This document shows positions 607 through 64,000 of a stretch of 64,000 nucleotides of DNA, piece after piece. Below the pieces are notes generated by a model. It saw nothing but the letters and a program-made list of their open reading frames with translations, searched no databases and was not told where the DNA came from. The position numbers and the translations under genes are program-made. How positions within the stretch are numbered: the first letter of the stretch is position 1; each line of letters begins with the position of its first letter. Origin of the DNA: Raillietiella orientalis (taxonomy: Eukaryota); contig JAYWIR010000001.1 of NCBI GenBank assembly GCA_036172245.1, positions 1,922,001 to 1,986,000 on the forward strand, given 5' to 3'.

Positions 607-45913
<45,307 letters not shown>

Positions 45914-47913
45914 ACCCGAGTGACCAGCTCAGATGACGGGTAATCTGCTCCCAGCGAGGATGCACAATCATCCGACATCACGTCTCATCAACAGAAAGTA
46001 GTTTTTTTCCATAAGTGTATGTTGTCGTTTAATATCCTAACTTAGGAGTGCAAACAGTTATTTTTTGTAGAGATTTCATAGTAAATATAGTACACTGACA
46101 ATACTCGTGTATGTGCTTGTGTATGCGTGTGTTTTTGCATCGCCCTCCTTCACGATTCAGCGCGGCATTTGGAACTGAAAACTGAAACCACTGACCTGCA
46201 GGTAGTGTAAAGTACCACGCCCTTTGGCGGTGTGACCAAAAAGTGTTGCTTCTCGGACGCATCACGGTTCGGTGAAAAGCGGACAGACAACTGACCAAGA
46301 CCTTGTACACAAAGGTTCTCCATTCCATTCAAGGACAAGTGTACTAGCAGCCGCCTCGAGATGTTTGGTGATCCATCTTCTGGCGCCGCGGCAGCAACTC
46401 TGCCGTCTCCATCCAAAGATCTTTGGCTGAGAATGTCACGCCGTCTCACATCCGATCTTGATCCATGATGGGTTCCCAAAAACAGTCGAGATAATTCTGG
46501 AAGGTAAAACACCAATGTTTGACCAATGTTTGGGCGCCACTGAAGCCACACTGAAGAGAGCTGAGCTTTGCAAAGATTATTCGTTGCTCGGTAGCAAAAT
46601 AGAGGAAATGAAAACAAACAAACATACCAAAAAAATGACAAAGTGCAGATAGATAAAAGTAGAAGGAGCAAAGCCCCGTTCCGTTATTTCATATTCTTTG
46701 CGGCTAAACACGGAGATTTTTGACTCTTCTAATAAATTGAAAGGAAGTAAGCTGTTTGTGGATTTGCGAAGGCTGAGGGTTAGTGGAATCGTGAGCCGAA
46801 TCAAAAGCCACCAACAAAAAAATTTGAAGACGCGGTTCTACTCTTACTTTGGAGGGCTTACAAAATCTTGAGTGGGAAGTGGGAAAGCCTCACAAAGTGT
46901 TGGGAAAAAGTTGACGTTGTTCGTAGAGGAAACCGGACCTAGGCCGAGAAAAACACCGCTGGTGTCGGTTCGCGGCCACCCTGCTGCATTCTAACCGACT
47001 GTCTGCAAGCGTCCTCCGGCTTCTCTTGAGCGCCGGAGGCGCTAGGTGGCGCCGTGAAAGTTCAAATCCAACAACAGCTGAAGAAGACTGGCAAAGCCGT
47101 CCCCGAAGGCGACAGAAGCTTCTGGACGCTTGCGAATCTCCAGGACGAGGTGGTTTTGGAGGAGCTCTTTGGAATGGAGTGTACGTGCTGCTGCTCTTCG
47201 AATTGCGGAAGGATTCCGAGACGCAGGACCGATTCCTTCCGGACATCTCTCTCGGATCTCACGTGCGCACGCGCTCTCGTTGAACGTGGCGAATGGTAAC
47301 GTGGAAATTCGCACGGCCTCCTACTTTGCTCTTCTTCCGTCTCAAGTTTTCCCTCATTTCCTTTCCTTTGCTCTGGGTTGCCGAGCTGTCGTCGTACGAA
47401 TAAACAAAAAGATTCTTTTCCAAACAACCTCCTGTTTGTCTGCTGGATCATTAGAAGCGGCTCAGATGAGCTCAGATGAACTTTGGTTACTCCTGAGAGC
47501 CGGTAAGCGAATTCGACTGGAGTGAGTCGGAAGCAGATTCAGGGGTTGCGAGCTCATGGTGCTCGTCTACAAACACGCGCACATGTCTACACGTCTCGTT
47601 CAAGAACCCAAGTATCTATTATTTTATCAATTTCGTACGTGATGTGCACGGGAATACCAACAAGCAGACGCGTGTTTGGCTGCGTTCGGTGCAGTGATCA
47701 ACTCTGGCCCAGAATTTTTATAAGCGAGCAATCACGTTAATCGAAAGCATGAAAGCAAAAAAGGAAAGAAACAGCACCAATAGAAGAGTTTTCAAAAGGT
47801 TTGGGGATCATTTCTGGCTCTAATGGTTTGTCTAAATCTTCTTTCCAAACCATACACGCAGTTTTATAGCCACCCTTATTACTGATACACAGCTTGAGTG
47901 CCTTTCTTAAAGT

Positions 47914-48825
47914 GTGCCAGCGTCGGAGGCTTTGTGGTTAAGGCTTCCGTGCTTGGCACCAGAATGGAATGATGTAACCCACAGCCTCACACCATGCGTC
48001 GCGGGTTCGAATACTCCGGCAGAAACTGACGCCACTGCGTCGTTGGGTTTCTCCTGCAATGGCGCTGGTTGGCCTCATCATTCGGGCGTGGCACCGGTGG
48101 TGGTTTAAGCCGGAGGCCCCCGATGAAGGCCGGAACAATGGGAGTCGGCCTTCGGATCTCTCCAGGAATCAAGGAGTGGGGAGTTCCCCCTCCTGTCGTG
48201 CAATGGAGAGCAGACCCCCCACAACGGGGGGACCCCTCCGGTTTCAACATGGATCAGGAGCTTTCACAGGCACCTCTCCAATTGTTCAAAGGAGCGGACC
48301 CCCCTGTTGCGGGGGGGACCCTCCGAGTCGTTGCCTTTTCACAGAGTGCAAGGAAGCAGGCGAGAGCGATTCCCTGCGGGAAGCTGCAGCGCCCCTTCGG
48401 GGTTCTCTTCAGAGGAGTGAACAGGAGCGGTTCCCTTGCGGGTTCCCTCCGGAGAAGAAATTCCTACTAGCCGATCCTTTCCGGGTTCCCTTCGGAGAAC
48501 ATGGAATAAAGAGGACCACCCCCATTAGGGGGGTTCCCTCCTGAAAGAATGAGGAAGGAGATTCCCTTCGGGGTTCCCCTTCGGAGACAACCAGGGTGGG
48601 AGGTGCGATCCTCCCTCCCCAAACGTGATAGGAACGGCCACCAAGCCTTCCTGGATTCATAGGGCGGACCCTCCCTTCGGGGGTGCCCCCTATCTTGAAG
48701 AATAACACTCACCCTCCGCGGGTGGCGTGGAACAGTGTTAAAGGGCCACGAGCGCCGCGAGGCACGCGACATAGGTACTCCTGAGGACGCACTCTTGAGG
48801 TACTTAGCGTACCAAAAAAAGAAAA
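47914..48825 (+). mobile_element. Full-length tRNA-derived SINE (~912 bp, subfamily 1) with 13-bp TSD
   Basis: A-box-like GGCTTTGTGGTTAAGGC, B-box GGTTCGAATAC (48004-48014), A-rich tail AAAAAAAGAAAA, flanking direct repeat cctttcttaaagt at 47901-47913 and 48826-48838; colinear with 22387-23341. Confidence 0.88.
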
Positions 48826-49577
48826 CCTTTCTTAAAGTTCCCTAGCTGCCAGCGCAGTTTAGGCTGAAGACATGCTTCTTTCTTAAGTGCTTTTTGATCT
48901 CCTGACCGGAGATGGACTCGCCGAACCACGCATCCAACGAAAGAATCCCGGATTTCGTTGCAAAAGGAGGACCATCCTCAGAACGTCCTCAGGCTTGTAG
49001 CAGAGACGACTGGGGCTTCTGCGAATTGACCGCAGGTTTCGCCCGTGAGTGTCCATTAAAAGTCCGGAAGCAAGCGGGGTCCATAGTTCCTAAAAGTCCA
49101 ACAAGTGGTCATTCATGCGATCCCTATCCTTGAGAGTGCGACAACGAAACCCGCAGGAGTGTTCGCGCTTTCACACACCGGGCAGAGGCGGCCTTTGTCC
49201 GTCTTCCGGGATCCATCGCGTTCAGGAGAGGCATGCAGCTATCCAGTGGACAGAAGACGAAAGAGCCTTGTTGTGGTCCACCTGCGTGCTGTTTGCGCTG
49301 AATCGAAGATGATCGTTTTTGAACTCTCTGCCAGAGACGGCCGTCGCATAGAGAGTTTCGTATGTCCGTGTGCCCCCAAGCTCTCGTCAGTTCTCACCCC
49401 TACAGCGCAAAAGTAACGAGAAGAGTAATTCACTGTGAAGATGACCACAGGAAATTCGTTAGTGGCGATCTGTCTTCATTCTCGCTGATCATGCAGCTGC
49501 TACTAAATAATTTCCTAGAGAACGTTCCTGACCCGAAAATTCGATCTGTGCGACAGACAAAATTTTTGGCCACCAAC

Positions 49578-50378
49578 GCGGGCCGTGGGCCTCGTTCGAA
49601 TGCGGTCTCCGCGCGTGTTGCCGAGGATCGCGGGTTCGAACCCTCCCGGGGAAAGAAGGATCGACGTCGAGAACGGGCGGTGCGTCGTGGTTTCGAGTTG
49701 CCTCCCGCAGGATGGCGCAGGTTAACCCATTCGGGTGAGGCACCGGTTGACACCCGGTCACGCCGGGACGTTTATTTATAAAAATAAACATCGATGGCTG
49801 TGGCAGGACGTTTGATTCTGATACGTTACTTATGGATACAAAAAGGAACCTTCCGGGATCGGGCATGCGGGCCAATCAGGATCACCTCGACAGGAAGGGG
49901 GGAAACAAGCAAAAAAAAACATGGGACCATCTTGACGCGATTACTCCTCTGAGAGTGAGGCACTGGTTGACACCCGGTCACGCCGAACCGTTCACACCGG
50001 GCTTCTGAGGGTGAAGCACTGGTGGAAAGCGGATACCCCTGTTGACTGGCCGGGATCGGAATTTGATCCTCAAGAGTCCTTCCGGGAATCAAAAGCCGTT
50101 CAGGGTTCTCCTCCGGTTGAGAAAATAAAGCCGATCCATGGAGCTGCTTCAAACCATTCTCTGGGGGTGCCCTTCCAGAGCGTAAGAAGCGAGCTACTTC
50201 CTTCGGAAAGCGACCCTTCAGAAAAATTGGGAGACGTCCCTTCGGGGTTCTCTACAGAGGAAGATACAAGGAGCGGCTCTCTTGCGGGTTCTTTTCGAAG
50301 ATGAAATTTTAGGAGCGGATCTGTTCCGGGTTCCCTCCGGAGAAGAAACGAGGAGTGCCCTCTCCTTCGGGAAGGCCA
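49578..50378 (+). mobile_element. tRNA-derived SINE, subfamily 2, 3'-truncated and interrupted by nested inserts
   Basis: CGCGGGTTCGAACCCTCCCGGGGAA head nearly matches the 9790 copy; hairpin modules to ~50378. Confidence 0.75.
49748..49954 (-). mobile_element. ~207-bp LINE 3' end nested in a SINE
   Basis: Ends AATAAA-CGTCCCGG-CGTGA-CCGGG-TGTCA; flanked by gtgaggcac(c/t)ggt at 49735-49747 and 49955-49967. Confidence 0.65.
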
Positions 50379-50379
50379 G

Positions 50380-51570
50380 CTAGACCAGATGATGGACCAC
50401 GCCCTGGTGCGCACCAGCTCGGCCCCTCGCGACGAGCGCAACCGGCTGCAAGGGACTCACATCTCTCCTGGTCGCCCGAGAGAGATTGCTGACGCGTTGC
50501 GGGTACCAACTGCTCCAGATGGTTGCCCTGGTGGAGGAGAACACCTCGAACTGCCTTCCCACGAACCGCACCGTCTGGCTCCAGGAGGAAGTCTTCGTCT
50601 GAAGAAAGATCCACAGCGCGAGCAAGGCGGGGTACTCCTGATTGCAGCGAGTCGAGTGGTTGGAGGAGGTCGTCCACCCCGCTTGCTCCAGTGCTGCCCT
50701 CCCTAAGGGGCACAAGGGACAGCGTGATCCCGGCAAGGTGGGAAGCGACGTGCTGCATAGCAGCAAAGACGAAACTTCTGAGCAGGTGGATAACTCTGGA
50801 AGTGACGGACGCTGCGACCCGAATGTCCCGCCGAAAGGACTTGCACGCTGGGGAGAGCTGCTCGGCATCCCTCCGGAGGTCAAGTGGCTCCCGTCGTGCT
50901 GGAACAGCGGCGCCCTCCACCAGGAGTGGCGGAAGTTGGCGTTGCCGGTGGCGCATGGGGGAATCCCGTGCAAAGCAGTAGACACGGGGGAGCGTAGACG
51001 ATCGGTGCGACAGGTGAGGGAAGAAGGAGACCCTCCCGCGCCTGCTGTTGGGCTGTGCTGCGCTCCGACCCCTTCGGCATCGCCTGGTGGCGATGTGGTA
51101 GGCGGTCCCAGGGACATTTTCAGACTTCTCTTCGCGCGCGTTTCCGCACTCCTTCGCAGTTCCCTTCTGTCTCTGAGGGATTACAGCGACCTAGTACGCC
51201 AGAAGAAGAGGTCGAAGTGGTAGGGATGTCATCCACTGGTCGCGGATCTTCCTGAGGACCGCCTCGAGATGGCCCCATCTGGGAGTCTTGAAACATGAAC
51301 TTGCCGGCATCCTGACCAGGATGCAGAGGACTCCTGGCAGCATACTGTGATCCCTTCCTCGGCCCCCCTTCCCTCCCCATGTATAATTCCCTCTCCCCTG
51401 TTTTTGTGTGCGTTTTTGTTTCCCCTTTCCCCACGCTACCGAAGCGGACCTCGCCGGTCTGCGTTCCAATCTGGGGCAGGTTCGTTGCTCCTGGTAGAAC
51501 CACTTGTTCTACCACACCAATGTATTTTCATTACTTTACGTAATAAATGTTCGGCATAACCGGAAGATAA
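50380..51570 (+). mobile_element. 5'-truncated, decayed L1/Tx1-like LINE: ORF2 C-terminus, 3' UTR and structured terminus
   Basis: WRKLALPVAHGGIP then (frameshift) DRCDR*GKKETLPRLLLGC zinc-knuckle remnant, C-terminal RWPHLGVLKHELAGILTRMQRT, pyrimidine-rich UTR, AATAAA 51542. Confidence 0.7.
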
Positions 51571-54094
51571 TCACCCTAGTAAACGGCCCATAGTAACGAC
51601 CACCCCGTGACGTCGCTACTGGCTTTTTTAAAGAAAAAAAGCCAGCCATTCCATGTTGGCTCAACACAAGCAAGATGAGATGCAAAACTCTGAAACATTC
51701 TCAGTTGTGTCTCGCGTCTTTTAGAGAATTCCCGTACGTTTCTCTCCATAGTAATAAGAATGTAGCGACTTTGTATGGCTTGATGAAGCATGAGCATTTT
51801 CACAATGATTTCTCACATGCATGCAAGACAGACATTTTGTATCCAATCAGTCAGATGATCGGAAACTGCTGATGACAGGTGATGTATCCAGCTGAAGAAA
51901 AATTGCCGCTTCTGGCAGAGCGATCGGAGCTAACCGGCAGTCTCACTATGGAAGCATTCCACAAGGGGGGAAGTGAAACCAAAGGGACTTTTGGAAATCT
52001 TCCTCGCTGCCGGAGGTTCGCACACGCTGCAAGCCAAGTGCCAAAGGAACCGAGCTGGGAGCCTGAAGTAAGCGCTGCGGAGACAAAAACCTGCTGGCGC
52101 TCAGTGAAGCACGACTTCATGGGGAGTTGGAAGGCAAGCAAGAGAAGTAATGGCCAAGCAGCACACCATGGAGATGAGGGCTGATGGGACATCTGAGAGC
52201 ACAATGATCTCCGAGGGAATCTGCGACTCAGAACTCGAAGCTGCTTGTCTCAGCAGCTACTGCGTGCGGACAAGATGCAAAGTATCGATCAAAGGAAGTG
52301 AACCGTGTCTTGGAGATAGCATTTCTCATGGGGAACTGCTTAAGAATTTTCCTCAATGATTATTTTTTTTGATAATTTTGATCCCAGCGGGGTAACCCTG
52401 CAGGACTTGGCCTGAACAACCGAGTGGTGTGTGAATCGTGAGCAGAGTGGTCGTCACATTTGTTCATGAATAATGCTGATGAGCTTCAAGAACCAATTAC
52501 TCAAATATACGGATCGCATCGATATCTTTCGGTGGCATTACTGAATTAATGAATTCCATCAAAGAGGCATTAATACTGATACAATATTGCTATAAACTAG
52601 AGAGTTTTTTTGTGGACTTTTCACACGGCTATAAAGAGTTGTCAAAACAAAAAAGCAGACCACTGCCACAGGCATGCTCTGGACAGGATTCAGAAACAGA
52701 GGTAAACGGTGAAGCTTCATCATTAGCATCCATATGAAAAATGCTGATGATAATATGAAAATGGATACATTTCCGCGTCACTTATCAAGCCAGCGAATAA
52801 GAAACAGGAGTCCTGCCATCTGTATTTTAAAAAACGATGAGCCGATGAAAAATATGAACGTGGCTCGCGCACTCCAGTCCCCGAAGTGTGGCTCTTCTAC
52901 CAACCACTTCGTAAATTCTGGAGAGCAGCGTCCTACCACTCACGCAGGCTTGCCAATTTTTGCAGTCAGCAGTGCTGAAAGGAAGCAAATTTTCCTCTGT
53001 GCGTTTCCCACAAGTTCATTCCATCTCTTAGCAATTTTTTTTTCTCTGTTTTTTTGTCTTTCGGGAGCCACTATGCACATCTCCCTACTACATGCTGCAG
53101 CCCTACTGACTTTCGAAATGCTTCTACAAAGGGGACTTGGAACAAAGCAGTTTCGGTTATCACCCTGAAATGAAAATCACTCATCTTTGAAAAAAGAATT
53201 ATTGGTTGCCAAATGAACCTCAAATGGGGATCATGTCGTCGTATACAGCCTTTTGCTCTAAAATCTACTGGAGCGTTACAAATGCATTCTTCTTCCTCCT
53301 GTCTGATGATTCCTCCGTCACTCTTTCTAAAATTACAGAGTCCCCAGCCGTGCAGAATCACTTCTGCATCCTTGGACATATCAATGGTTCTCAAGAAGCT
53401 ACGCAAAAGCAGTCATCTTTACGTTACCCAGAGCGACAAATTAGAACAGTAAGTGATTCTTTGAAATAATAGGCAAATTAACTGTTCATCTGGATCCCAT
53501 AGGTGCTGTTGCGTCTACTCAGGTGACTGGGCTCATGATAACTGACCTCCGTTGCACGAGTATTCGTTTCTCGGCTATTCCAAATTACGTTCCATGAAGC
53601 ACTGTGGTTGTTTTGAACTATTCACCTTCTTCTTCAACGCGCAAACTTTAAGGGATGCTTAGAACAAAACAAAGTACACACTAAAAACGGGAAACAATTC
53701 TAGGAAATTTAAGCATCAGCAATCCAAATGTGAGAACAGTTCTTGCATTGGATAGGAACTGCCTTTGATATCTCTCTAAGCAAATCTGCGAATCTCCAGG
53801 CAGTCAGAAGTAGTTTACTAGTGGCCTAACGGACTATCACTGAAACTATCAAGGTCTCAGGAGAGAAAAGAAAAGTATGGGAAGAGCAATGAGACGATTT
53901 TTGGTGGCATTATTATAGCAAGGAATACATTAGAGAGTCGTCTGTTCATAATTGAGAACTTCAAGGAAAATACCAAAAATATATTTGCAGACAAAATACC
54001 CCCGTAATGAGTACCTCAAGAACGCCACTACACTTATGTAATTATGCCGAATAGAATTTTGAAGGTGTCATAGCGGTAGGGTAACAACCTGCCG

Positions 54095-54380
54095 TTTAAC
54101 GATGGCCATCGCTTTACGATATCATGTCGCGAAACTGACGAAAGCAAAACGTGGTTGCTAAAGGTCGTTGTGAAAGGGACGAAAACAAAGAGTCGTTGCT
54201 GAAGGTCGTTGTGAAAGAGACGAAAGCAAAACCGTCGCTGCGAAAGAGACGAAAGCAAAAGCGTCATGGTAAACCACAAACTTCCGAATTCTGAAATGAA
54301 ATTTGAACCACTAATGTGACCACTAATGACCACATGCGTAGGTATATACGTGACAGTAACGTATACCTACGCACGTATGT
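54095..54380. repeat. Short imperfect tandem array (core gtcgttgtgaaagagacgaaagcaaaa) flanked by palindromes
   Basis: About four units at 54125-54265, gaccactaat repeats, palindrome cgatggccatcg, hairpin tgcgtaggtata...tatacctacgca at 54335-54373. Confidence 0.7.
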
Positions 54381-55039
54381 GATACTCACCTTTTAGACGG
54401 AAAGGGGCCAAAAGCTTGGAATGGAATTGCACGACCATACCAAATCATTCCTTACAACGTCGACAAAACATTAAAGCAAATACTAAAAACACTGCATGAT
54501 TACCACTGAATAGAAAGCAGTCCGTCTAAGACAAAAAGATGGAGGAAGCATTCTACAATATCGCCAAGAAAAGATCCTCAGTAGGTAATTAAAAAAATCT
54601 TTACAAGGGAGACTAAAAAAAAAATATAAATCAAAGTCCTAATGTGCGTAAATTCCAGTGGGTCGAAGAAATATATTCCTGGTTTATATCTAGAAGCATA
54701 AAACTACGCAAGCGAAGAAACTCGAAAAGCAAAAGAAGAATGTTGGTACCCAATCATACCGAAAATAGCACCAGTCGGCCATTTTCGTGCCATTAATAAT
54801 AACACCAAGTTAAAGCATTGGATGCAATAAACTGACGTGTTAAAATGACTCGTTTATTGGTTGAAGATCGATTTTCTTTGGATAAAGTGCATTAAATAAA
54901 TTGTGCTTCATGATTTAAATGAATCTGAATTTCGGAAGTTACCGTTCACTCCGCTCCGCACTGCTTCCCGGAGAGACGATTTCTTGCAGCAGCACATCCT
55001 CCTTCGAAAGGCCCGCTCAAGGGTGGCGAGTTTTCACTG

Positions 55040-55600
55040 AGGGCCTCCAGAGGTGCTCTGAAGCCGTGCGGTTACGGCTGTCGTGACCTATGCCATCCAC
55101 CGTTGTTCACTTTAGTGTTCCCACCTCGAGAAGAGAACGGACAGCATCCTCACATCATGGGTAGGGTGCTGCAACGACAGGTCAGCATCGTTGTCGTTAC
55201 ACGAAGTCGCACAAGAGCCACACAGCCACGCAGGTCTGTGGATCACAGCCGTCGCGATCCATAAACCACGTTTGCTTTGCCAGCCTGCAAAGGTTTGTGG
55301 CAAAGGCATGAACCGCCTACAAGTGTGGATGGGTCCATGGACTTCGAGAACTTCGAGAACGAAACAGCATTGCTGGCAACGGGGAGGACAAATGAAGTGT
55401 GGTGGGCGCAGGTCACGAAAACAAAGCCCTCGTAGAAAAGATTTCGCTGTGGAAATGGAAAACCCATCGAAGAAGACCCACGGACAAACGCAACGAATCT
55501 GAAGATGCCGAACCGGGAAGAGGCAGACGTCATTAGGAACACACAAAGACCCCAGGGGGTAGCACCACAAACACCTCTAATGTTGACCTGAACGGATGAT
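55040..55600 (+). mobile_element. Decayed Penelope-like element end (GIY-YIG remnant plus damaged hammerhead motif)
   Basis: VVTYAIHRCSL*CSH...SASLSLH...H...W...MNR in GIY-YIG order, followed by CTGAAGA-TGCC-loop-GGCA-GACGTC at 55499-55531. Confidence 0.5.
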
Positions 55601-56807
55601 TTCCGACACAACTTAAGAGTACGAGTTTCTTCAATCGGACAAGCGAGTCATTTCTCTTAAGGATTTAATCCAATCCCACCTTTATGACTTCATCAGGAGC
55701 TGGAAGATTTTCCGCCCCGCTCGCTCCAGCCACTTAACTCTTTCTGAGCTTCCGACATCCGTAAACATTTCGTCGACCTTTTCCCCCCTTTGAAATAATT
55801 CCCACACGGCTCAGTACCGTTACCGTCTACCTTTTGGCTATCATTTGGCCTTCGAACCCAAAGCAGCATTCACATTTGATTCCGTATCCCTCTTAGAGTG
55901 GGTTTTTTTCAAAACGAATAAATAAATTCAAAAGCCATGAATAACTCCATGTTGTTTCTTGGAATAAGTACGATTAACGAGAACGAGCATAAGCAAATAG
56001 CACGCATCAAAATAAATTTGAAAAGCCTTTAGGCAGAACGGGCGAAACTCGAAAAATCAACCGTCACTTCATCACTTAATCTTGCAATGAGAGTTTGGAA
56101 ACTTCTCATAAGCACAAGCAAATATGCGTCGTTCACAGAAATTCCTTTGGATGTGTGTTTTTGTGCACGAAGCACTTGGAAACGAGCATCCATCCACGGT
56201 AGTCCGACGGGGGGTAACCACAGTTCCATTTACAAAAACATTCACATTTGGTAGCACCTTAAGACACAAATTAATACATTCTGAATCTGAACACAAGATG
56301 TATTTGGCAATCACCTCTTTTTCTTAAAAGATAATCAAACATTGGGAAAAACAAAAAAAAAACAAAAAAAAAAAAAACAACGACCCCGTTACAAAATACA
56401 TAAATATATTCTTTCAGAAATCAATAATATAAAGTAAGAGAATATCTTGGTTATCAGATTTGTGACTGGCGCTTGCTAATACCCGAAGCCAATATTGCTG
56501 CCAGTTTGCTTTCTTTCAGTGGGAAGGGCAAATAGAATGAAGCAGCGTATGCAATTTACTTGCAATGACTAGAAGTGCAAGCTGGAGCCTGCTGCAAACA
56601 CCATAGCATAACCTCATCAGGAAACCAATAACCTTATTCTTACAGAAACCACTGAGGGCAAAAATTTTATATAAAGGGCAGGCTCTTCGGCAATGGTACC
56701 ATGTGGTTTGAGAATCGAACTAATGGTTTAAGCATTCAACAAGGCACCTGAAGAGCTGCATACTTTCCAGTAGAATAATAAGCGTATTACATAGATCACG
56801 TTCAGAT

Positions 56808-56906
56808 TCAAAGATCATCAAAGGATGAGGCAGCCAAACTTGCTGCAGAATTGTGAAGATATGTGGAGTTTGAGCCTGTAGAAGACTGCTGCAACTGGGT
56901 TATGAG
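56808..56906 (-). CDS. ATXN7: ATXN7 exon 8 (LITQLQQ...SSFDDL stop)
   Basis: Acceptor aattttccag after a 47-nt intron, TGA at 56810-56808; no homology support. Confidence 0.6.
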   Translation of the reverse strand, partial: LITQLQQSSTGSNSTYLHNSAASLAASSFDDL

Positions 56907-59900
56907 CTGGAAAATTACGTTATCGATACCAAAGCTAAATAGAGGAAACGTACCTTCCTAACAGGCACATCAGGTTTGGATAATGATGTGAGGTTAACAA
57001 GCTGCTGAGGCATCCCTACTTGAAATGGAACAGAGTTGGCCCCTGCGTTTTGGACCTTCACTACATTAAAAGACTTTTTAAACCAATAAACGTATTCAGG
57101 AAAATTTAAAAAAAATTTTTTTTTGATTCATTACATTTTTCTTAGATCTACAAATGGAATGTTTACTTTTCATCTACCTTTCTGTCCTGAGATCGATGGT
57201 CCACCAGTTTGCATATCCCTGCTGGAAAGATTTGAAACAAGCATATCATGCATTATGGGATGTGAGTTGGAAAGTGTCTTCATGGCATTATCTTTTTCGG
57301 ATGGAGAAGCACCACTCAGCAAGGGGACTGACAAGGAGCAAGAGGGTAGACCATTTGGTAATTCTAATGTTACAACACTGGATGAAGGAGAATTACTAGC
57401 ACACTTATTTAAAGCTAGCTTGCTTTTGCGAGCTTTTTTGGCTTGAGGAATGGGATGGAGTCCTTCAGACACTTTTCTGATGGATGCACCTTCATATGGT
57501 CCATTAACCTCAGTCTCATTCACTGATTCAGGTACTGAACGATGAGTTATCAAGGCAGTGTGAAGTGCATTGCGCAATAAATCCCACTTATGATCAGAAA
57601 CCAGAGCACCACCAAGAAATCGACTATCAAAGACGCAGACCTGAAATATGGATGCGATGAATGACATTCCTGGCACATGAAAAGTTACCGAAATTGGCAT
57701 AGCAACTGGTGGCAACTTTGGAAGCGTTCTTTCATTTGACGGAGACTTATCTGATCTGTTAGTGTCTCGAGGAGAAACTACAGGAATATCAGTCTGAAAG
57801 ATGGATTCCTTTTGATCATCACTTTCCTGCAATGCCCAAATAAGAAGTTTTATTAACACCAACATAAAGGGGAAATGGGAAACAAAAATGTGAGACTAAT
57901 TACACAGTGCAGTGATGAAAAATTTAGAGAATAAAATGACCAATAGCATTTTATAGCTAGCCAGAAAAATCACAAATCTGGATGTTGATAACACTTTTTT
58001 ATAACTAGTCATACATTTAAAGCATGTGCATGGTTCCTCAAGTAGCAATATAATACCAATTTATTATGAAATATTTGAAATAACGGACATGATCTCTGAA
58101 AGTCAAACATTTTTTTTAAAATTAATTTTTAATACAAAATACTAACTTAAAGAAACGCTAAAATAAAGTGATTGCATATAAAGAAAACATTCAATATTAA
58201 CAAAACGTGCATCTCTGAATATTTTTATTGAAACAGACATACATTAATAACCTATAATTTATAACAAAAATAATCAAAATAATCAATTAAAATAAAAGTA
58301 ACACTATTTAAATTGTCAACTTTGGTTACAAGGAATTTAATGAGAATAAAAACAATGTTTTCATAACATACTCCCAATGAATACAACTCCTGATATCAAG
58401 CATTCTACAAAAACAGTCTGATGATTTTGAAATACACAATCACCTGTGATAGCAGTAGCAGTAGTAATTACAACTCTCTCTAAGTATTATTTAATAAAAT
58501 GTTGAAAACCACAGATCTAGCCATATCTCTTCAATTTTATGAATGGTAGAGACGATTTGGGACAACAAAAGAGATGGAAGCAAATTATAAACAAAACTTC
58601 AATAATTTGTCCTTTTTAAGAGAATTGCTTTCAACAAACAAACTAGTAGTCTCTTTCTAATTTTTGAAGCCATGCATACTTGATTTGGGCAAAAAATTTT
58701 AGGAAAAACAATTTAAAAAATCATGCAATTGCTTGATTTTTTAAATTATTCTACACTAAAACATAAAGGGAGAAAAAAAAAACTCATTCACATCATTTAG
58801 GAGAGAAAATTCACATCATTTAAGAGAAAAAAAATTGCTTATCACATAGCATTCATGTTCCATAAATGCTCTCACATGTTTCAATACCACTGACTCTAGT
58901 CAGTAATGACATTAGATGCAAATCTTCCTCAGGAACTGACTGATATCTGGAGCCTAGTCTTCCCTACAAAAGCAGTATAATACTTTTCAGCATAGAAAAA
59001 TGCTACACAAAGTGTAGGTACAATGCTATGCACCATATTTTTGATAGATTTTATTCTAATAATTTTGTGGATGCTCCATTATTACAAATCATATCATGAA
59101 TGTTTTCCTGTTATGAAAATTATATTAAACTTCTGATTTGTTTCTTAGTAATATTAATTCAAATCAGTCTTGTTTAACTTTTGATAGGAGAGCATTATTC
59201 TTAAGTTGAATGATAAATAATTATTGAAAGCAACACTAGGGCACAAAAGCCACTGAGAGACTGGGTTTTATTATTTCAAATAAATTAAAATGCCATGAAG
59301 ACTTAGCAAGCTCCCCTTCAAAGACTGTTGCTTAGGCTACCATAATTGAACAAAATGTACCTGCAAAAATATTTAAATATAAATTTGCTATACCTCTGGA
59401 AATATTGATTAAAATAAATATTTCTATCTAATGAAATTTTCTCACTTATCTTTGCTACCTAAGGAACATAACTTCACTACATCAGTAATGACAAATATGA
59501 TCAAGCATTCAGCATTTGAAGCATGCTTGTTTCTGTGGATTCAAGCTAATCTTTACAAATTCTATCAATCTATAATAATTCAAAGGAGACAAATAATAGA
59601 ACCAACAAAACGTATCAGTTTTAGAAATTTGCTGTTACTTTAGAATGAGTATTTTGGTACTTTCTTTCAGAATAATAATGGCAGAATAACATGAATTAAG
59701 TTATCAACCCATTATGATTTCTACAAACTTCATATGCTTTTTCATTGTTCTCACTTTGCAAGCTCTGCCTATGAAAATACCTTTTCACAAACGGATTTTC
59801 TACATTCCTTCTACGTAAATTGAACTCTTGTACAACATGGTAGTTAAAAAAAATTAATGCACTATCCTAGGTTAATGAATCCTACATAGTTCAAAATGTT

Positions 59901-62708
59901 TAAATTTTATACTTCAAAAATTGAGCCATAGTTCTCTTTAACTTATCAAGTACTTTTATTAACATTAATGTAATAATATTGCATATTTATACATCAATAC
60001 ATTAAAAATAATACAGTTTCATTACTTTCAAACATGCAGACATGATGCTGAAATCATTCATTATAAATTGCAGAGAATAAGTCAAACTTTTTGAAAAGGT
60101 AAACAAGATTTAAAAATAAATTGATTACAAAAATCCTTCCTCAATCATATAATAAAAATATTTCTTTTAAGGAAGTTATAGTTCCCAGAAAATTTTATCA
60201 AATAATCAATGTATTTAAAAATAAAAACTTCAAAATTAAGGAATGAAAACTTTCATTCATTAGAGCAAAAAATCAGTTTTCTATATGAATTCCCCTGAAA
60301 AATTCATTTTTAACAATTCTAAAAATGCAAAAAATACTCCTACAAATTTATGTATTTGTAATAAACCAATTCTCCTTCAAATCTATAAACTAGTATCTGC
60401 ACCTTATGAATAGCTGCATTATGACTTGGATGTTCAGAATTTGTTTGTGCAGCGTCAAAATGCTCCACACAAGGAATTTCATCATTCCAATTGGAAATAG
60501 AAGCACTAGAAAAACTGGCAGAAACTTGAGAGTTTTCAACTTGCTCAATTTGATTGAGCTCCCTGATATTTGAAAGTGAAAATTCTTTATTTAAAACACA
60601 AATTGGGCTCACTGACAGACTGTCACGTAAAGAATTAGTTAAGTTTGGAGATATTTCTAAATGTTCTTCACTTGCTTTAACATCTTTTCTAATTATCACA
60701 GATGACAGAGTTTGAGGTGGGGATATAAGACCAAATGAGGGTAAAATCTCATCAACTTCTGCATGTGGATAAGAGCATCCATCATGATTATTTAAAGCAC
60801 CATCAATTAGAGGAATTATAGAAGGTCTGGAAACATCAGTACCATGACATGCAGACTGATTTAAACATGAAAAACTTGGAGGAGGAGGTTGTTGTGCAGA
60901 TGGCAATGGTCCCTTAGAATAATTCTGATTCTTATTCTTTAAATTGCGTTCTGTATCTTTTTTGACTTTCTTTTCCTTTGCAAAAGATGCATTTTCATCA
61001 AACATATGCATATCCCCATGACTACCAACTGTATCATTTTCAGTATCTGATGAGTTTGGAGACAATGCATATGCATGCCATATTTCTAAAATTATAAAAA
61101 ACACATCATATTATTAATCCTACATTCTCTATACTTACGCATATGCCTCAATATTGCCTGAGGTTTCACCACCTTCTCACATATATCACAAACAACTAGA
61201 TAAAAATCATCTTGAGAAGGACAGAGTCCAAATATATCCATATCTAAATAAAAAACAAAAACAAGTGAATATAGCATTATTTCAGGAAATTATGTTGCTG
61301 TTCTGTCCCACAAAAACCATCAGAAGACTTGTAAACATCTACAATTTTCCCATTATACCACAATAAATGTACGATTATATCACAACTAGATATGTTTACG
61401 TATTAAGAGTACTCCAATCCAGAAATTAATGTACTTAATCCAAAACTGTCTATTTAAGTTCAAGCAACCTTCTTCAGGTTTGCCTTTGGATAAACAATAA
61501 TGACGCACATTTCTCAAAGAAAACATCAACTAATCTCCCTTTAAACCTCTTCATATTGAACCCTAACTATGAAGCAATGTGGAGGAAATTTACAGATACA
61601 TGAAGAAAATTTCGAACAAAATGCTGAAACTCGGTCAAAATGATTATGTACAAACTTCACAATTAACTCCATGTACAAGATACCCAACTGCCAACTTGTG
61701 CTGACATAAAATGCATGTCCATACAAAACACTTGAGCTTAGAAGAAATCTTACATCCATGACAATTACTTTCAACCTTGCATGAAAATCTACTTAATCAT
61801 ACGTACATCCTGACTTTTTTTCTTTTTTTTTCTAGAATAATTTCTGAAGGGTACACACTTGTTCTGAGCCATTCAAAATGTTGTTGACCCTACCCTGTCT
61901 TTCTAATTTAGCATGTATACTAAAACACTATTTATGATAAACTTCATAATGAATTTCTAAGTGTATGCTCTTAAACATGTTGCAAGGCAAATGTGATAAA
62001 GTAATCATGTGAATAGTTCTTTATATATGTTACTTTTATGCATACTTCTCTAATTCACTATTGGCAATCCTATATGCTCTACATAAGCTGCTGACTTTTG
62101 ATCTTGTAGTTATGCAATTCCACAAAGCTATAATATAAAGAATAGTTTTTTATTTTCTTTTTCTACAGTTGAGGAAAAATATAATCTTAATCTTAATGCT
62201 TTCATTTACAGACAAAAACATTTTTCTGCTCGCATGAATAAAAATATTGAAAAAAAAAAAAACATTTATGAAACGTTCACTACATTACTATATCTTTCAC
62301 CGACAAAACCTAGACTTACCTTCCTTTTTAAGCCTCATACAGTCTTTGGAAACTTGTAGGCTTTCTTTGATATGCTGGCATTCATCTAGGGAACACAATT
62401 AAATAATTTTAGAAAATCACTCAACAGACGTACCAATTTCAATCATATAACGATACCTCATAATAAATTATACTGATTTTTAATAGCCCTTATTGAAATT
62501 TATTAATATTGATTATCTAATTTTGTGAGTCAAAAACGAATTTTTAAAAATGACAGTACGGTACCATACTTCAACATATCCTACAAGATGTAAATGGAAA
62601 TCAAATCTAACGATACTAACTTTCTGAATTTTCCAATTTTCTTTTCTCAATCCAGGAAGACCATGGCTGGCCAAGGTAATTCATTGGGCTATCATCCTTG
62701 GCCGCCAT
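56808..62708 (-). CDS. ATXN7: Ataxin-7 / Sgf73 homologue, 8 exons, ~582 aa; exons 62708-62621, 62385-62320, 61243-61139, 61085-60403, 57826-57689, 57640-57178, 57060-56954, 56906-56808
   Basis: Diagnostic N-terminal [55 protein letters not shown] (C2H2 ZnF-Sgf73) and the C-terminal block PIS-VCVFDSRFLGG...DHKWDLLRNAL. GT-AG introns with consistent phases; joined length 1749 nt. Confidence 0.88.
56954..57060 (-). CDS. ATXN7: ATXN7 exon 7 (VKVQNAG...DVPVRK)
   Basis: Acceptor ttttaatgtag, donor AAG|gtacgt, open frame; no homology support. Confidence 0.65.
57178..57640 (-). CDS. ATXN7: ATXN7 exon 6 (VCVFDSRFLGG...WDLLRNAL...SGQK)
   Basis: Acceptor atatttcag, donor G|gtagat, ataxin-7 C-terminal conserved block. 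Confidence 0.83.
57689..57826 (-). CDS. ATXN7: ATXN7 exon 5 (ESDDQKES...PKLPPVAMPIS)
   Basis: Acceptor gcattgcag, donor gtaact, phase 0-0. Confidence 0.8.
60403..61085 (-). CDS. ATXN7: ATXN7 exon 4 (last His of the ZnF plus a long low-complexity linker)
   Basis: Follows a 53-nt intron; ~227-codon open frame in very AT-rich DNA. The donor AAG|gtgcag is weak, so the 3' edge is less certain. Confidence 0.8.
61139..61243 (-). CDS. ATXN7: ATXN7 exon 3 (zinc finger DMDIFGLCP...LRHM)
   Basis: Acceptor ttttatttag, donor gtaagt, strongly conserved peptide. Confidence 0.93.
62320..62385 (-). CDS. ATXN7: ATXN7 exon 2 (NECQHIKESLQVSKDCMRLKKE)
   Basis: Acceptor gttccctag, donor gtaagt, phase 1-1. Confidence 0.88.
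62621..62708 (-). CDS. ATXN7: ATXN7 exon 1 ([29 protein letters not shown])
   Basis: ATG in AAAATGGCG context, donor gttagt. Confidence 0.88.
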
Positions 62709-62803
62709 TTTTATTATACTTTTGATCAGGTGTAATACATAAATGACGTAAAAAAGTATGTCATTCTAAGCGGTTACATCAAAAATCTAAAGCACATTTT
62801 GAA
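62709..62803. promoter_or_regulatory. Putative bidirectional promoter/5' UTR region between ATXN7 and CFAP57
   Basis: 95 bp between divergent ATGs; CRE-like TGACGTAA at 62744-62751; YY1/Pho-like GCCGCCATTTT at 62701-62711 overlapping the ATXN7 start; local return of CpGs. Confidence 0.6.
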
Positions 62804-63009
62804 ATGGAATCGCCGAAAGCTGAAAAACTATACTGTGTTGGCATATCTCATTTTTTAAATCATGGAATTGAGTTCAAAGACAATCAAAATATTATATACT
62901 GTGCAGGAAAATCACTCATCATATGCAATGTAGATCAGAAGCGGCAACTATTCATACATACATCAGCCAAAGCTAATCGTATTTGTGGTTTTGCAGTCTC
63001 GTATAAAAA
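62804..63009 (+). CDS. CFAP57: CFAP57/WDR65-like WD40 ciliary protein, exon 1 (gene continues beyond the window)
   Basis: IEFKDNQNIIYCAGKSLIICNVDQKRQLFI...GFAVS resembles the CFAP57 N-terminal blade (FxDEQxIIFPxG...YNVDQKxQKFI); donor AA|gtacgt at 63010. Confidence 0.78.
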
Positions 63010-63152
63010 GTACGTATTTTCATTATTAACAAACATAATGATAGAATTTTAAAAAAAAACTACGGTGATAATGTGCACAGGTAATGATTTCTGAAGTTTA
63101 ACACGCAGTATGTTCTTACATAACAATGATTTCTTTTTTTTTTTTTCACAAG

Positions 63153-63263
63153 GCAACATCTTGCTGTGGCTGAAAGCAGCCAAAAATTATTCATTAAAGT
63201 ATTTGACCTTAGTTCTTTGAAGAAAAGGAAAGTTATATCCTTACAAGAATTTGGTTCTCAGGC
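63153..63263 (+). CDS. CFAP57: CFAP57-like exon 2 (KQHLAVAE...IKVFDLSSLKKRKVI)
   Basis: Poly-T acceptor ttcacaag, donor gtaagt at 63264, matches the RYLAxxE...IxIYDLxxxRKRK pattern. Confidence 0.8.
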
Positions 63264-64000
63264 GTAAGTAAATCCATACAAATTAGTTCACAATCCAAAA
63301 TCTCAGAAATACACTTAAGTTGAGCACCTGATTCACTTGATATGTTTGAAAGTACATTTCCATAAGGCATTCAAAAACAGATTAAATGAATTCCACAGTT
63401 ATGTCAAGTACACACAAAGGTCTGTGAATGTGCATGATAAATTTGTTTTTATCTGATGACTTTTTTTTTTTTTTTTTTTGCATATGCATGACACTTGCAA
63501 ATTAAATATATGTCGTAAGTTTTGACATTTTTGAATTTATTTCACTTTTTGTCAATCATTGGAAATTGGCAAAAGTTTTCAAGTTGTGAATTTTGAAATA
63601 AATTTTCCTGTTCGCCTCTTATCTATATTTGATATAAATATTTGTGCATTTCATGAAAGTGGAACAGCATTAGGAATATTTGAAAACCATAATTCCACTC
63701 AATTGCATATTTTGCTCTCATGTTAACTTTTATATTGTATTAAGATAAAATCTATCGATTTTCGATTCCCAGAAGCTCAATACTTACATCACAAATTTAA
63801 AACAGTTCTTTCAATTTTAATGTTTGGACACTGCAGGCATTAGTTGCATACATATTTTCTGATATCATCTTCAGTCTGGATCTTTCAAACAATTCATTCT
63901 TTTCGATGCAGCTAACTACAAACACTTGCCCATAAATTTTTAAAGTGTTACTTTGTTAAAACAGCTGCAGAAAAGTGCCCATTATTTATGCCTTAAGGGA

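What the first reader, a model, noticed from the sequence alone, without database searches (positions are those of the whole stretch)
47914..48825. Long tRNA-headed SINE whose body is an array of ~12-14 repeated hairpin modules
Seen: between the Pol III tRNA head and the A tail, the element repeats a module of rough consensus GGAG-C-GG-W-[CCC-loop-GGG]-TT/A-CC-CTCC-GG, separated by purine-rich linkers. Examples in copy 22387 are GGGAG-TCG-ACC-TTCG-GGT-C-CTCCC, GGAGCGG-ACCCCCC-TGTTGC-GGGGGG-ACCCTCC, GGAAGCG-TCCC-TTCG-GGG-TTCTCTTC and GGAGCGG-TTCCC-TTGC-GGG-TTCCCTC. Loops differ between copies (ATCC vs TTCG; GTCACC vs ACAAC; TCCCA vs ATTA) while stems persist, and subfamily 2 (9790, 49578) keeps the module style at much lower primary identity. 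Established: most SINEs are 100-600 nt with a non-repetitive body. Inference: RNA structure is under selection, so the transcript may be a multivalent scaffold, for example for LINE ORF1p/ORF2p or ribosome docking as the Alu domain does, or a source of small RNAs.
Basis: partly seen in the sequence, partly recalled or inferred. Interest (0 to 1): 0.72.

Follow-up and report, generated by a model that had tools for sequence, protein, structure and literature searches.

The report
Long hairpin-rich SINE-like retroposon
This is a 912-base non-coding jumping element of the SINE type whose middle is unusually rich in short GC hairpins, some of them copies of one unit, but the few copies available give no proof that the hairpins are kept by selection.

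Summary
The element is real and sits exactly at 47914-48825. It is flanked by a perfect 13-bp target duplication, ends in an A-rich tail, and has a box-B promoter motif in its 5' head. The window holds one more full copy, one fragment and two distant relatives.

Its body folds far better than shuffled sequence (z -4 to -6; five control regions -0.5 to +2.2). A defined hairpin unit (GGAR, C-run, loop, G-run, CYTC) occurs 5-6 times per copy. It occurs 0 times in the other 60 kb and about 0.1 times in shuffles.

- Only 5-6 units fit the consensus, not 12-14.
- No tandem repeat or periodicity is detectable.
- tRNA models do not recognise the head.
- The second subfamily hardly keeps the hairpins.

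Covariation does not exceed controls, and stems and loops change at similar rates. G.U and A.C outcomes are equal, and both strands fold equally well. Two things hint at RNA-level constraint: CTTCGG occurs only on the sense strand, and the outer stem stays paired across units.

Verdict: an unusually long SINE-like retroposon with a partly duplicated hairpin body. A function for the hairpins is unproven. Dfam, Repbase and SINEBase could not be searched.

The parts
47901..47913 (.). left target-site duplication CCTTTCTTAAAGT
   Evidence: Exact 13-nt match to 48826-48838.
47914..48825 (+). whole element (subfamily 1, copy c47914), 912 nt
   Evidence: Bounded by the target duplication. Aligns from its first bases with copy 22388-23341.
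47928..47944 (+). box-A-like, D-arm-like stretch inside a 20-pair 5' hairpin (47914-47959)
   Evidence: Read from the sequence; hairpin. Only an approximate match to the recalled box A consensus TRGCNNAGTGG. No tRNA model hit.
47957..47989 (+). 33-nt insertion private to this copy, between box A and box B
   Evidence: Absent from copy 22388. Skipped by 2 contigs of run X1, with 5 nt of microhomology (table 5).
47999..48014 (+). box B region: TCGCGGGTTCGAA, then TAC
   Evidence: The 13-nt block 47999-48011 is the longest stretch invariant in all four full copies; the next longest are 8 nt. It matches the recalled box B consensus GGTTCGANNCC except at its last two positions in subfamily 1, and fully in subfamily 2.
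48027..48123 (+). 5' body: two longer stem-loops (48027-48077 and 48082-48123), alignable with subfamily 2
   Evidence: (z -2.78 and -0.85).
48139..48194 (+). two short hairpins: GGGAG..CTTCGG..TCTCC (decayed in this copy) and GGAG-GGGG-AGTT-CCCC-CTCC
   Evidence: z 0.03 and -2.35. In copy 22388 the first one is perfect. Its outer pair reads G-C, G.U, A-U, A-U across the four copies (pair 147/168).
48205..48238 (+). consensus module 1 (GGAG..C6-ACAAC-G6..CCTC)
   Evidence: fold z -2.20.
48246..48286 (+). hairpin with TCAC loop, absent from subfamily 2
   Evidence: (z -1.49).
48291..48323 (+). consensus module 2 (GGAGCGG-A-C6-loop-G7-A-CCCTC)
   Evidence: -24.4 kcal/mol, z -3.27.
48325..48389 (+). 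a 16-pair stem-loop, then CTGCGG-GAAG-CTGCAG; holds the only T4 run of this copy (48336)
   Evidence: z -1.30 and -3.34.
48379..48410 (+). consensus module 3 (GGAAG..CCCC-TTC-GGGG..CTTC), the best-conserved module in all four copies
48424..48449 (+). consensus module 4 (GGAGCGG-TT-CCC-TTGC-GGG-TT-CCCTC)
   Evidence: (z -1.75). AGGAGCGG is invariant in four copies.
48480..48542 (+). two hairpins (..CCCTTCGGAG.. and ACCCCC-ATTA-GGGGGT)
   Evidence: z -0.51 and -0.93.
48553..48582 (+). consensus module 5 (GGAAGG..CCC-TTCG-GGG..CTTC), with a second CTTCGG 13 nt further on
48594..48726 (+). four more stem-loops: 48594-48619, 48629-48653, 48656-48699, 48708-48726
   Evidence: z -3.11, -2.99, -2.15, -2.07. 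Copy 22388 has an 18-nt palindromic insertion inside the first and a larger hairpin in place of the last.
48799..48813 (+). 3'-terminal stem-loop GGTAC-TTAGC-GTACC, directly before the tail
   Evidence: z -4.15. Weaker (3 bp) in copy 22388; a GGGT..ACCC stem lies at the same place in copy 9790.
48814..48825 (+). A-rich tail A7-G-A4
   Evidence: The same A(n)-G-A4 form is in copy 22388 and in copy 9790.
48826..48838 (.). right target-site duplication
22388..23341 (+). second full subfamily-1 copy, better folded, no T4 run
41892..42095 (+). 5'-truncated fragment between 13-bp direct repeats (41879-41891 and 42096-42108), no A tail
9790..10507 (+). subfamily-2 copy (58-66% identical to copy 22388 in the aligned blocks)
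49578..50400 (+). subfamily-2 copy with an internal duplication and insert; 3' end not defined

Best explanation
This is a non-autonomous, non-coding non-LTR retroposon of the SINE type, about 0.9 kb long.

The 5' head carries an internal RNA polymerase III-type promoter: box B, plus a rough box A about 55 nt upstream of it in the copy without the 33-nt insert. The RNA would be copied into the genome by a LINE reverse transcriptase through target-primed reverse transcription. The enzyme would start at the A-rich tail that follows a small 3' stem-loop. This leaves a 13-bp target duplication.

The body is a string of short GC-rich stem-loops. Part of it arose by repeated local duplication of one hairpin unit of about 30 nt (GGAG / C-run / loop / G-run / CTCC), and by palindromic insertions into existing hairpins.

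I take the hairpins to be a property of the family's source RNA that acts in cis. Many independent local folds would keep a long transcript compact. They would leave the head and the 3' end free, and perhaps offer repeated binding sites for the partner LINE's proteins. Inserted copies then decay neutrally.

Shown: the retroposon anatomy, the hairpin excess, the repeated unit, and the neutral decay of copies. Inferred: Pol III transcription, the LINE partner, and any function of the hairpins.
For: - Perfect 13-bp target duplication and A7-G-A4 tail. A second insertion has a 13-bp duplication too.
- The two full copies start within one base of each other.
- The longest block invariant in all four full copies is the 13-nt box-B stretch.
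- No Pfam family in 9 frames across the copies, and no protein homologue.
- Multi-copy: 82 contigs of a DNA run lie on the element, with 2/9/31/40 in the identity bands >=99, 95-99, 90-95 and <90%.
- Fold z -4.2 to -6.1 for subfamily-1 bodies against -0.5 to +2.2 for controls.
- Consensus unit 5 and 6 times, against 0 in 60.4 kb and about 0.1 in shuffles.
- In all 6 distinct units, a 5' GGAA goes with a 3' CTTC and a 5' GGAG with a 3' CCTC. The first short hairpin shows G-C, G.U, A-U, A-U at one outer pair across the copies.
- CTTCGG occurs 6, 6, 2, 3 and 1 times on the sense strand of the five copies, and its complement 0 times. Shuffles give 0.44-0.51, with 0/1000 reaching 6. The window background is 0.25 and 0.36 per kb.
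- The best-preserved copy has no T4 run (shuffles 3.0; 1.4% have none), as a long Pol III transcript would need.
- Copy differences include an 18-nt perfect palindrome placed in a hairpin loop and a 12-nt tandem duplication.
Against: - No tRNA model recognises the head. By SINEBase's own rules, boxes A and B are only an indication.
- 912 nt exceeds every family in SINEBase 2012, where the range is 75-662 nt without tail (PMC3531059, section 'SINE data analysis'). It is also long for Pol III.
- Subfamily 2 has T4 runs and almost no hairpin excess.
- Covariation is not above controls. G.U equals A.C at 29:29. Stems and loops change at similar rates. The + and - strands fold equally well.
- Only about 2-3 of the 6 CTTCGG sites sit at a predicted hairpin tip. 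Its strand bias could come simply from head-to-tail duplication of one unit.
- No LINE partner was seen in the window.
- The fragment at 41892-42095 has a target duplication but no A tail.
Confidence: 0.45

Rival explanations
1. The same retroposon, but the hairpins have no function. They would be by-products of how GC-rich quasi-palindromes mutate: slippage in C and G runs, short tandem duplications, and template switching or snap-back synthesis during reverse transcription or replication. These processes create and perfect palindromes without selection.
For: - Indels between the two subfamily-1 copies are themselves palindromic or tandem. Examples are an 18-nt insertion giving a 10-bp perfect stem, a 14-pair hairpin replacing a 5-bp one, and a 12-nt tandem duplication.
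- Both strands fold equally well.
- No covariation above controls. G.U:A.C is 29:29. Stem and loop rates are 0.099 against 0.115-0.147.
- Subfamily 2 has lost almost all the excess.
- A SINE with a degenerate motif of about 20 nt repeated more than 10 times is already known, the CHRS 'quasioligomer' (PMC3531059, section 'Data acquisition').
Against: - CTTCGG is 18:0 sense against antisense over the five copies, and about 12 times the shuffle expectation.
- Outer-stem complementarity is kept in all 6 distinct units with two different stem versions.
- Stable GC hairpins should hinder reverse transcription, yet they are strongest in the copy nearest to what run X1 shows as the common state.
Confidence: 0.35
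2. The body, or its 3' part, is copied from the 3' UTR of the partner LINE. On this view the hairpins are that LINE's own recognition structures for its reverse transcriptase.
For: - SINE bodies and tails often descend from partner LINEs (PMC3531059, 'Definitions'; PMC5786205, abstract start in the search listing only).
- A stem-loop sits directly before the tail in all copies.
- The fragment 41892-42095 is a 5'-truncated piece with a target duplication and a different 3' end, as a LINE tail might be.
Against: - No LINE or reverse-transcriptase frame was found among the frames tested.
- Window self-comparison shows no other sequence sharing the 3' region.
- Both full copies begin at the same base with the promoter head.
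Confidence: 0.15
3. It is not a Pol III SINE. It would be a Pol II-transcribed non-autonomous retroposon, or a LINE deletion derivative, whose box-B-like motif is fortuitous or a remnant.
For: - Length of 912 nt.
- No tRNA homology detectable.
- T4 runs in 3 of 4 copies.
Against: - The box-B block is the most conserved stretch of the family.
- It lies about +55 from the 5' end, with a box-A-like stretch at about +12 in copy 22388. That is the geometry of a type-2 Pol III promoter (recalled).
- The best copy lacks T4.
Confidence: 0.1
4. One reading: the transcript is a host-relevant or LINE-relevant multivalent scaffold, or a small-RNA source, kept by selection on RNA structure.
For: A repeated unit with conserved pairing, and a sense-strand CTTCGG bias.
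Against: - No covariation above controls.
- Stems of about 5-15 bp are too short for Dicer-type processing (established knowledge, recalled).
- Only 5-6 units are alike.
Confidence: 0.08

Closest known systems
tRNA-derived SINEs (head-body-tail, Pol III boxes A and B, LINE-dependent), as defined in SINEBase (PMC3531059, 'Definitions' read in full)
   Same: Interspersed, non-coding, 5' head with box B, body of unknown origin, A-rich tail, target-site duplication, subfamilies, 5'-truncated copies.
   Different: At 912 nt it is longer than any of the 175 families listed there (75-662 nt without tail). Homology of the head to a tRNA could not be shown. The copy number and the partner LINE are unknown.
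CHRS/CHR-2 SINEs of cetartiodactyls, a 'quasioligomer' with a degenerate motif of about 20 nt repeated more than 10 times (PMC3531059, 'Data acquisition', passage read)
   Same: The SINE body is partly made of a short degenerate unit repeated in the same orientation, and the number of units varies between family members. In run X1, contigs skip 52-219 nt blocks (table 5; short sides, so weak evidence).
   Different: Here the unit is a two-tier hairpin of about 26-35 nt. Only 5-6 units are recognisable, separated by other hairpins, and there is no detectable tandem periodicity.
Stringent-type LINE/SINE pairs, in which the reverse transcriptase recognises a 3' stem-loop (PMC5135761 and PMC6510757, abstract starts seen in the search listing; examples recalled)
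   Same: A small stem-loop lies directly upstream of the tail (48799-48813).
   Different: Here there is also an A-rich tail, there are many more hairpins along the body, and the partner is unknown.
Alu and 7SL-derived SINEs (recalled)
   Same: The idea that a SINE RNA fold matters for retroposition.
   Different: No 7SL similarity: Rfam finds nothing. The structure here is a chain of small hairpins, not an SRP Alu domain.

Membership tests
SINE (SINEBase criteria, PMC3531059) | Short (<1 kb) interspersed, non-tandem genomic repeat | tested here: met
   912 nt. Five dispersed copies or fragments in 64 kb. No tandem array.
SINE (SINEBase criteria, PMC3531059) | [quoted passage not shown] | not testable with these tools
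   No genome is held. 82 short contigs of one DNA run lie on the element at 80% identity or more. That shows many copies but gives no count.
SINE (SINEBase criteria, PMC3531059) | At least 60% identity to a tRNA, 5S or 7SL RNA over 60 nt or more | tested here: inconclusive
   ARAGORN finds 0 tRNAs and only implausible calls at 70% threshold. Rfam shows no tRNA, 5S or 7SL hit at E <= 10 on whole copies or on the heads alone. No eukaryotic tRNA set was available for a direct identity count; the one bacterial tRNA at hand gave 32/52.
SINE (SINEBase criteria, PMC3531059) | Internal Pol III promoter (boxes A and B); an indication only | tested here: met
   Box B is exact in subfamily 2 and nearly so in subfamily 1, inside the only 13-nt block invariant in four copies. 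A box-A-like stretch lies about 45-50 nt upstream. The consensus motifs are recalled.
SINE (SINEBase criteria, PMC3531059) | Transcribed by RNA polymerase III | not testable with these tools
   No RNA run was listed. A T4 run is absent only in copy 22388.
SINE (SINEBase criteria, PMC3531059) | Non-autonomous: encodes no protein | tested here: met
   No Pfam family in 9 frames over the copies. No homologue of the 188-aa frame. Indels between copies shift the frames.
SINE (SINEBase criteria, PMC3531059) | Retroposed by a partner LINE (target duplication, 3' tail of simple repeats) | tested here: met
   A 13-bp perfect target duplication and an A7-G-A4 tail for this copy. No duplication was found for three other copies. 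The partner LINE was not identified.
Quasi-oligomeric SINE (CHRS-like) | Degenerate short motif repeated in tandem many times within the body | tested here: inconclusive
   5-6 units per copy fit one consensus. TRF, self-BLAST and autocorrelation show no regular array.
Structured RNA under purifying selection | Compensatory base changes above phylogenetic and shuffled controls | tested here: not met
   (see text). Only 4-5 sequences, so the power is low.

The most novel reading that the evidence does not exclude
The source RNA of this family is a Pol III transcript of about 0.9 kb, built as a chain of a dozen or more autonomous GC stem-loops, several capped by the very stable UUCG-type loop on the sense strand only. 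The chain would be kept by selection because it serves as a repeated docking platform for the partner LINE's RNA-binding protein or reverse transcriptase, or as armour against nucleases. That would be a new way for a SINE to compete for the LINE machinery, and it would break the usual length limit of SINEs.
Probability: 0.15. Interest if true: 0.65.

Novelty: new variant of a known kind. Interest (0 to 1): 0.35.

Why it matters
If the hairpin chain proves to be functional, it would show that a SINE can carry a modular, duplicable RNA structure. It would also show that Pol III-type retroposons can approach 1 kb. That gives a handle on how SINE RNAs recruit LINE proteins.

As it stands, the finding is a well-delimited and apparently recently active retroposon family. 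It is useful for repeat annotation of an organism whose genome seems absent from the protein and contig collections searched here. It is also a clean example of how hairpin-rich repeats can look selected without passing a covariation test.

Tried and rejected
- Whole-genome search: no genome is held.
- Earlier notes of this scan: nothing on this genome or sequence. A word search gave only unrelated elements.
- Sequencing runs: one DNA run with a 0.09 share of words, and no RNA holder listed. Laying it gave short contigs only, and the last 75 nt had no cover.
- Public contig collections:
  - Metagenome scan with a degenerate 22-mer from module 4: 5 loci.
  - Genome scan with an 18-mer: 16 loci.
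  - Viral scan with the same 18-mer: 1 locus.
  - All are chance matches of 30 nt or less by BLAST.
- Organism identification:
  - 10 longest frames against Pfam: nothing.
  - The 256-aa frame 60343-61110(-) against 5.8 billion proteins: nothing.
  - I considered a coccidian such as Sarcocystis on composition alone. I read passages of PMC4337577 and PMC9141347. Neither mentions a SINE of this kind, and nothing ties the window to them, so the idea was dropped.
- Rfam: no family at gathering score in the window. Only noise at E <= 10.
- Coding body: rejected.
- Simple count of perfect stems of 4-6 bp: clearly above shuffles only in copy 22388 (31 against 18.5, 0/200). It is not above shuffles in this copy (20 against 17.8).
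- Count of strong stem-loops (dG <= -12): 9-10 against 3.7-3.9 in shuffles. However, one control region also gave 9 against 4.3.
- RNAalifold on four sequences reported 16 of 43, 1 of 29 and 3 of 41 pairs with double changes. I do not count this as evidence, because the method picks such pairs.
- Literature: five full-text searches found no description of a hairpin-array or UUCG-rich SINE of about 0.9 kb. Dfam, Repbase and the SINEBase sequence bank cannot be searched here, and supplements are closed, so 'undescribed' is not established.
- timed out and was repeated with fewer shuffles.
Full report
WHAT IS THERE

The stretch 47914-48825 is one copy of an interspersed repeat.
- It is bounded by a perfect 13-bp direct repeat, CCTTTCTTAAAGT, at 47901-47913 and 48826-48838.
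- It ends in CC-A7-G-A4.
- BLASTN within the window finds four relatives:
  - a second full copy at 22388-23341 (85% identity over 770 nt, same 5' end within one base);
  - a fragment at 41892-42095 (94% identical to positions 664-850);
  - two much more distant copies at about 9790-10507 and 49578-50400. This 'subfamily 2' is 47-74% identical to copy 22388 in the aligned blocks.
- The fragment also lies between perfect 13-bp direct repeats (GAGAAGGTAGAAA).
- A coded public DNA run lays 82 short contigs on the element. Most are 80-95% identical, so the family is multi-copy in that organism.
- No genome is held for the window, so copy number could not be counted.

THE HEAD

This is only partly borne out.
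- ARAGORN finds no tRNA in the window, and nothing credible when its threshold is lowered.
- Rfam gives no tRNA, 5S or 7SL match at E <= 10, on whole copies or on the heads alone.
- What is there is a box-B/T-loop motif. TCGCGGGTTCGAA (47999-48011) is the longest block identical in all four full copies; the next longest are 8 nt.
- A box-A-like stretch lies about 45-50 nt upstream. In copy 22388 the two lie at about +12 and +55 from the first base. I recall this as the geometry of a type-2 Pol III promoter.
- SINEBase states that such boxes are an indication, not a proof (PMC3531059, 'Definitions').
- This copy carries a private 33-nt insertion between the boxes (47957-47989). Copy 22388 lacks it, and two contigs of the run skip it.

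NON-CODING

Long open frames cross the element, as expected in sequence with 60% G+C. Nine of them have no Pfam family. The 188-aa frame has no homologue among 5.8 billion proteins. Indels between the copies shift the frames.

THE HAIRPINS ARE REAL

- The whole element folds with z -4.45, and copy 22388 with z -6.11, at 20 shuffles each.
- With folding restricted to local pairs (span 50, 40 dinucleotide shuffles), the two subfamily-1 bodies give z -4.2 and -6.1. Five control regions of similar G+C in the same window give -0.5 to +2.2.
  - It occurs 5 times in this copy and 6 times in copy 22388.
  - Shuffles give about 0.1, and 0 of 300 reach the observed count.
  - It does not occur at all in the other 60,402 nt of the window.
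- The units share more than pairing needs (GGAGCGG three times). They are therefore most likely paralogues made by local duplication.

THE 'ARRAY OF 12-14 REPEATED MODULES' IS OVERSTATED

- Only 5-6 units fit the consensus. The other stem-loops are of different kinds.
- Of 20 stem-loop segments that I cut from this copy along the predicted hairpins, 10 have z <= -2. That choice of segments favours low energies.
- Tandem Repeats Finder finds nothing. Self-BLAST finds one weak internal repeat. There is no purine/pyrimidine periodicity.
- Simple counts of perfect stems exceed shuffles clearly only in copy 22388.
- One of two control regions also showed an excess of strong stem-loops.
- Subfamily 2 does not 'keep the module style'. 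It has 1 and 0 consensus units, and local fold z of -1.6 and 0.05.

IS THE STRUCTURE UNDER SELECTION?

I tested this in every way the five sequences allow.

(a) Between the two subfamily-1 copies:
- Paired columns differ at 0.099 and unpaired columns at 0.115.
- By class, stems differ at 51/517, hairpin loops at 16/109, and linkers at 9/103.

(b) One-sided changes in stems:
- They give G.U 15 times and A.C 12 times on one reference structure, and 14 and 17 on the other.
- That totals 29:29, the neutral expectation.

(c) Structure taken from copy 22388 alone, counted on four-sequence alignments:
- Pairs changed on both sides number 8 against 6.1 in shuffles (106/500 as high). A slid control reaches 9.
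- In the 3' block they number 4 against 1.8 (26/500).

(d) Among pairs with any change, those still paired are 11/28 (this copy), 31/68 (copy 9790) and 19/56 (copy 49578). This is no better than the 0.3-0.6 seen when partners are slid.

(e) The + and - strands fold equally well.

There are caveats. Inserted copies decay neutrally whatever the source gene experiences. Four sequences give little power. A sequence-based alignment may misplace shifted stems.

TWO OBSERVATIONS POINT THE OTHER WAY

- CTTCGG, the sequence of the stable UUCG-type loop with its closing pair, occurs 6, 6, 2, 3 and 1 times on the sense strand of the five copies. Its complement never occurs.
  - Dinucleotide shuffles give 0.44-0.51, and 0 of 1000 reach 6.
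  - The rest of the window has 0.25 and 0.36 per kb for the two orientations.
  - However, only about 2-3 of the 6 sites lie at a hairpin tip in the predicted fold.
  - Two pairs of sites are obvious paralogues, so part of the bias is inheritance from a duplicated unit.
- The outer stem stays complementary in two versions.
  - In all 6 distinct units, GGAA at the 5' side goes with CTTC at the 3' side, and GGAG with CCTC.
  - The first short hairpin shows G-C, G.U, A-U, A-U at one pair across the four copies.

In addition, the copy nearest to the common state seen in the run has no T4 run (expected 3.0; 1.4% of shuffles have none). The single T4 of this copy is a private change. This fits a long Pol III transcript, but subfamily 2 has two T4 runs per copy.

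HOW THE BODY CHANGES

The differences between the two subfamily-1 copies are instructive.
- An 18-nt insertion in the loop of one hairpin makes a perfect 10-bp GC stem.
- A 14-pair hairpin stands where the other copies have a 5-bp one.
- There is a 12-nt tandem duplication.
- A 22-nt insertion resembles the neighbouring unit.
- In the laid run, contigs jump over blocks of 52-219 nt (table 5). The sides are short, so this is weak evidence.

The body therefore evolves by duplication, loss and palindromic insertion. That can create and renew hairpins with or without selection.

CONCLUSION

The best reading is a SINE-type retroposon. [quoted passage not shown] It is unusually long, and its body is partly a duplicated hairpin unit.

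I put 0.45 on the hairpins being a cis-acting feature of the retroposon RNA. I put 0.35 on their being mutational by-products. These confidences were judged separately and partly overlap, so they need not sum to 1.

COMPARISON WITH WHAT IS KNOWN

- SINEBase defines SINEs as shorter than 1 kb (elsewhere in the same text, shorter than 700 bp). It found 75-662 nt, mean 253, for 175 families (PMC3531059; sections 'Definitions' and 'SINE data analysis' read). At 912 nt this element is at the edge of that definition.
- A body made of a repeated degenerate motif has a precedent in the CHRS 'quasioligomer' (same paper, 'Data acquisition').
- Five full-text searches found no description of a hairpin-array SINE of this size.
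- Dfam, Repbase and the SINEBase sequence bank are not available here, and the organism is unknown. The family may therefore already be catalogued.

For these reasons I rate it a new variant of a known kind, of moderate interest.

Noticed in passing
window 51000-64000: G+C falls gradually from about 0.51 to 0.28-0.31. CpG observed/expected drops from 0.9-1.0 (1-56 kb) to about 0.4 (56-64 kb). Two long stop-free frames lie there on the - strand (57173-57895 and 60343-61110). They have no Pfam family, and the second has no homologue.
   Followed up: partly
window 41879-42108: The fragment of the family lies between perfect 13-bp direct repeats. It stops about 60 nt short of the family's 3' end and has no A tail, which ordinary tail-primed retroposition does not explain.
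   Followed up: partly
window 49735-49992: The subfamily-2 copy holds an internal duplication (49735-49772 and 49955-49992, 89% identical). Between the two halves is an AT-rich insert of about 200 nt with a perfect 8-bp AT hairpin at 49770-49789.
   Followed up: no
window 5473-5570 / 21624-21725; 23754-23918 / 26401-26567; 15697-15875 / 51196-51373: Three other small repeat pairs, all in inverted orientation, 69-83% identical. They are unrelated to the element.
   Followed up: no
window 50400-51200: A GC-rich stretch (63%) directly after the subfamily-2 copy has long open frames on both strands (up to 293 aa), no Pfam family and no fold excess. It is unclear whether it belongs to that copy.
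   Followed up: partly
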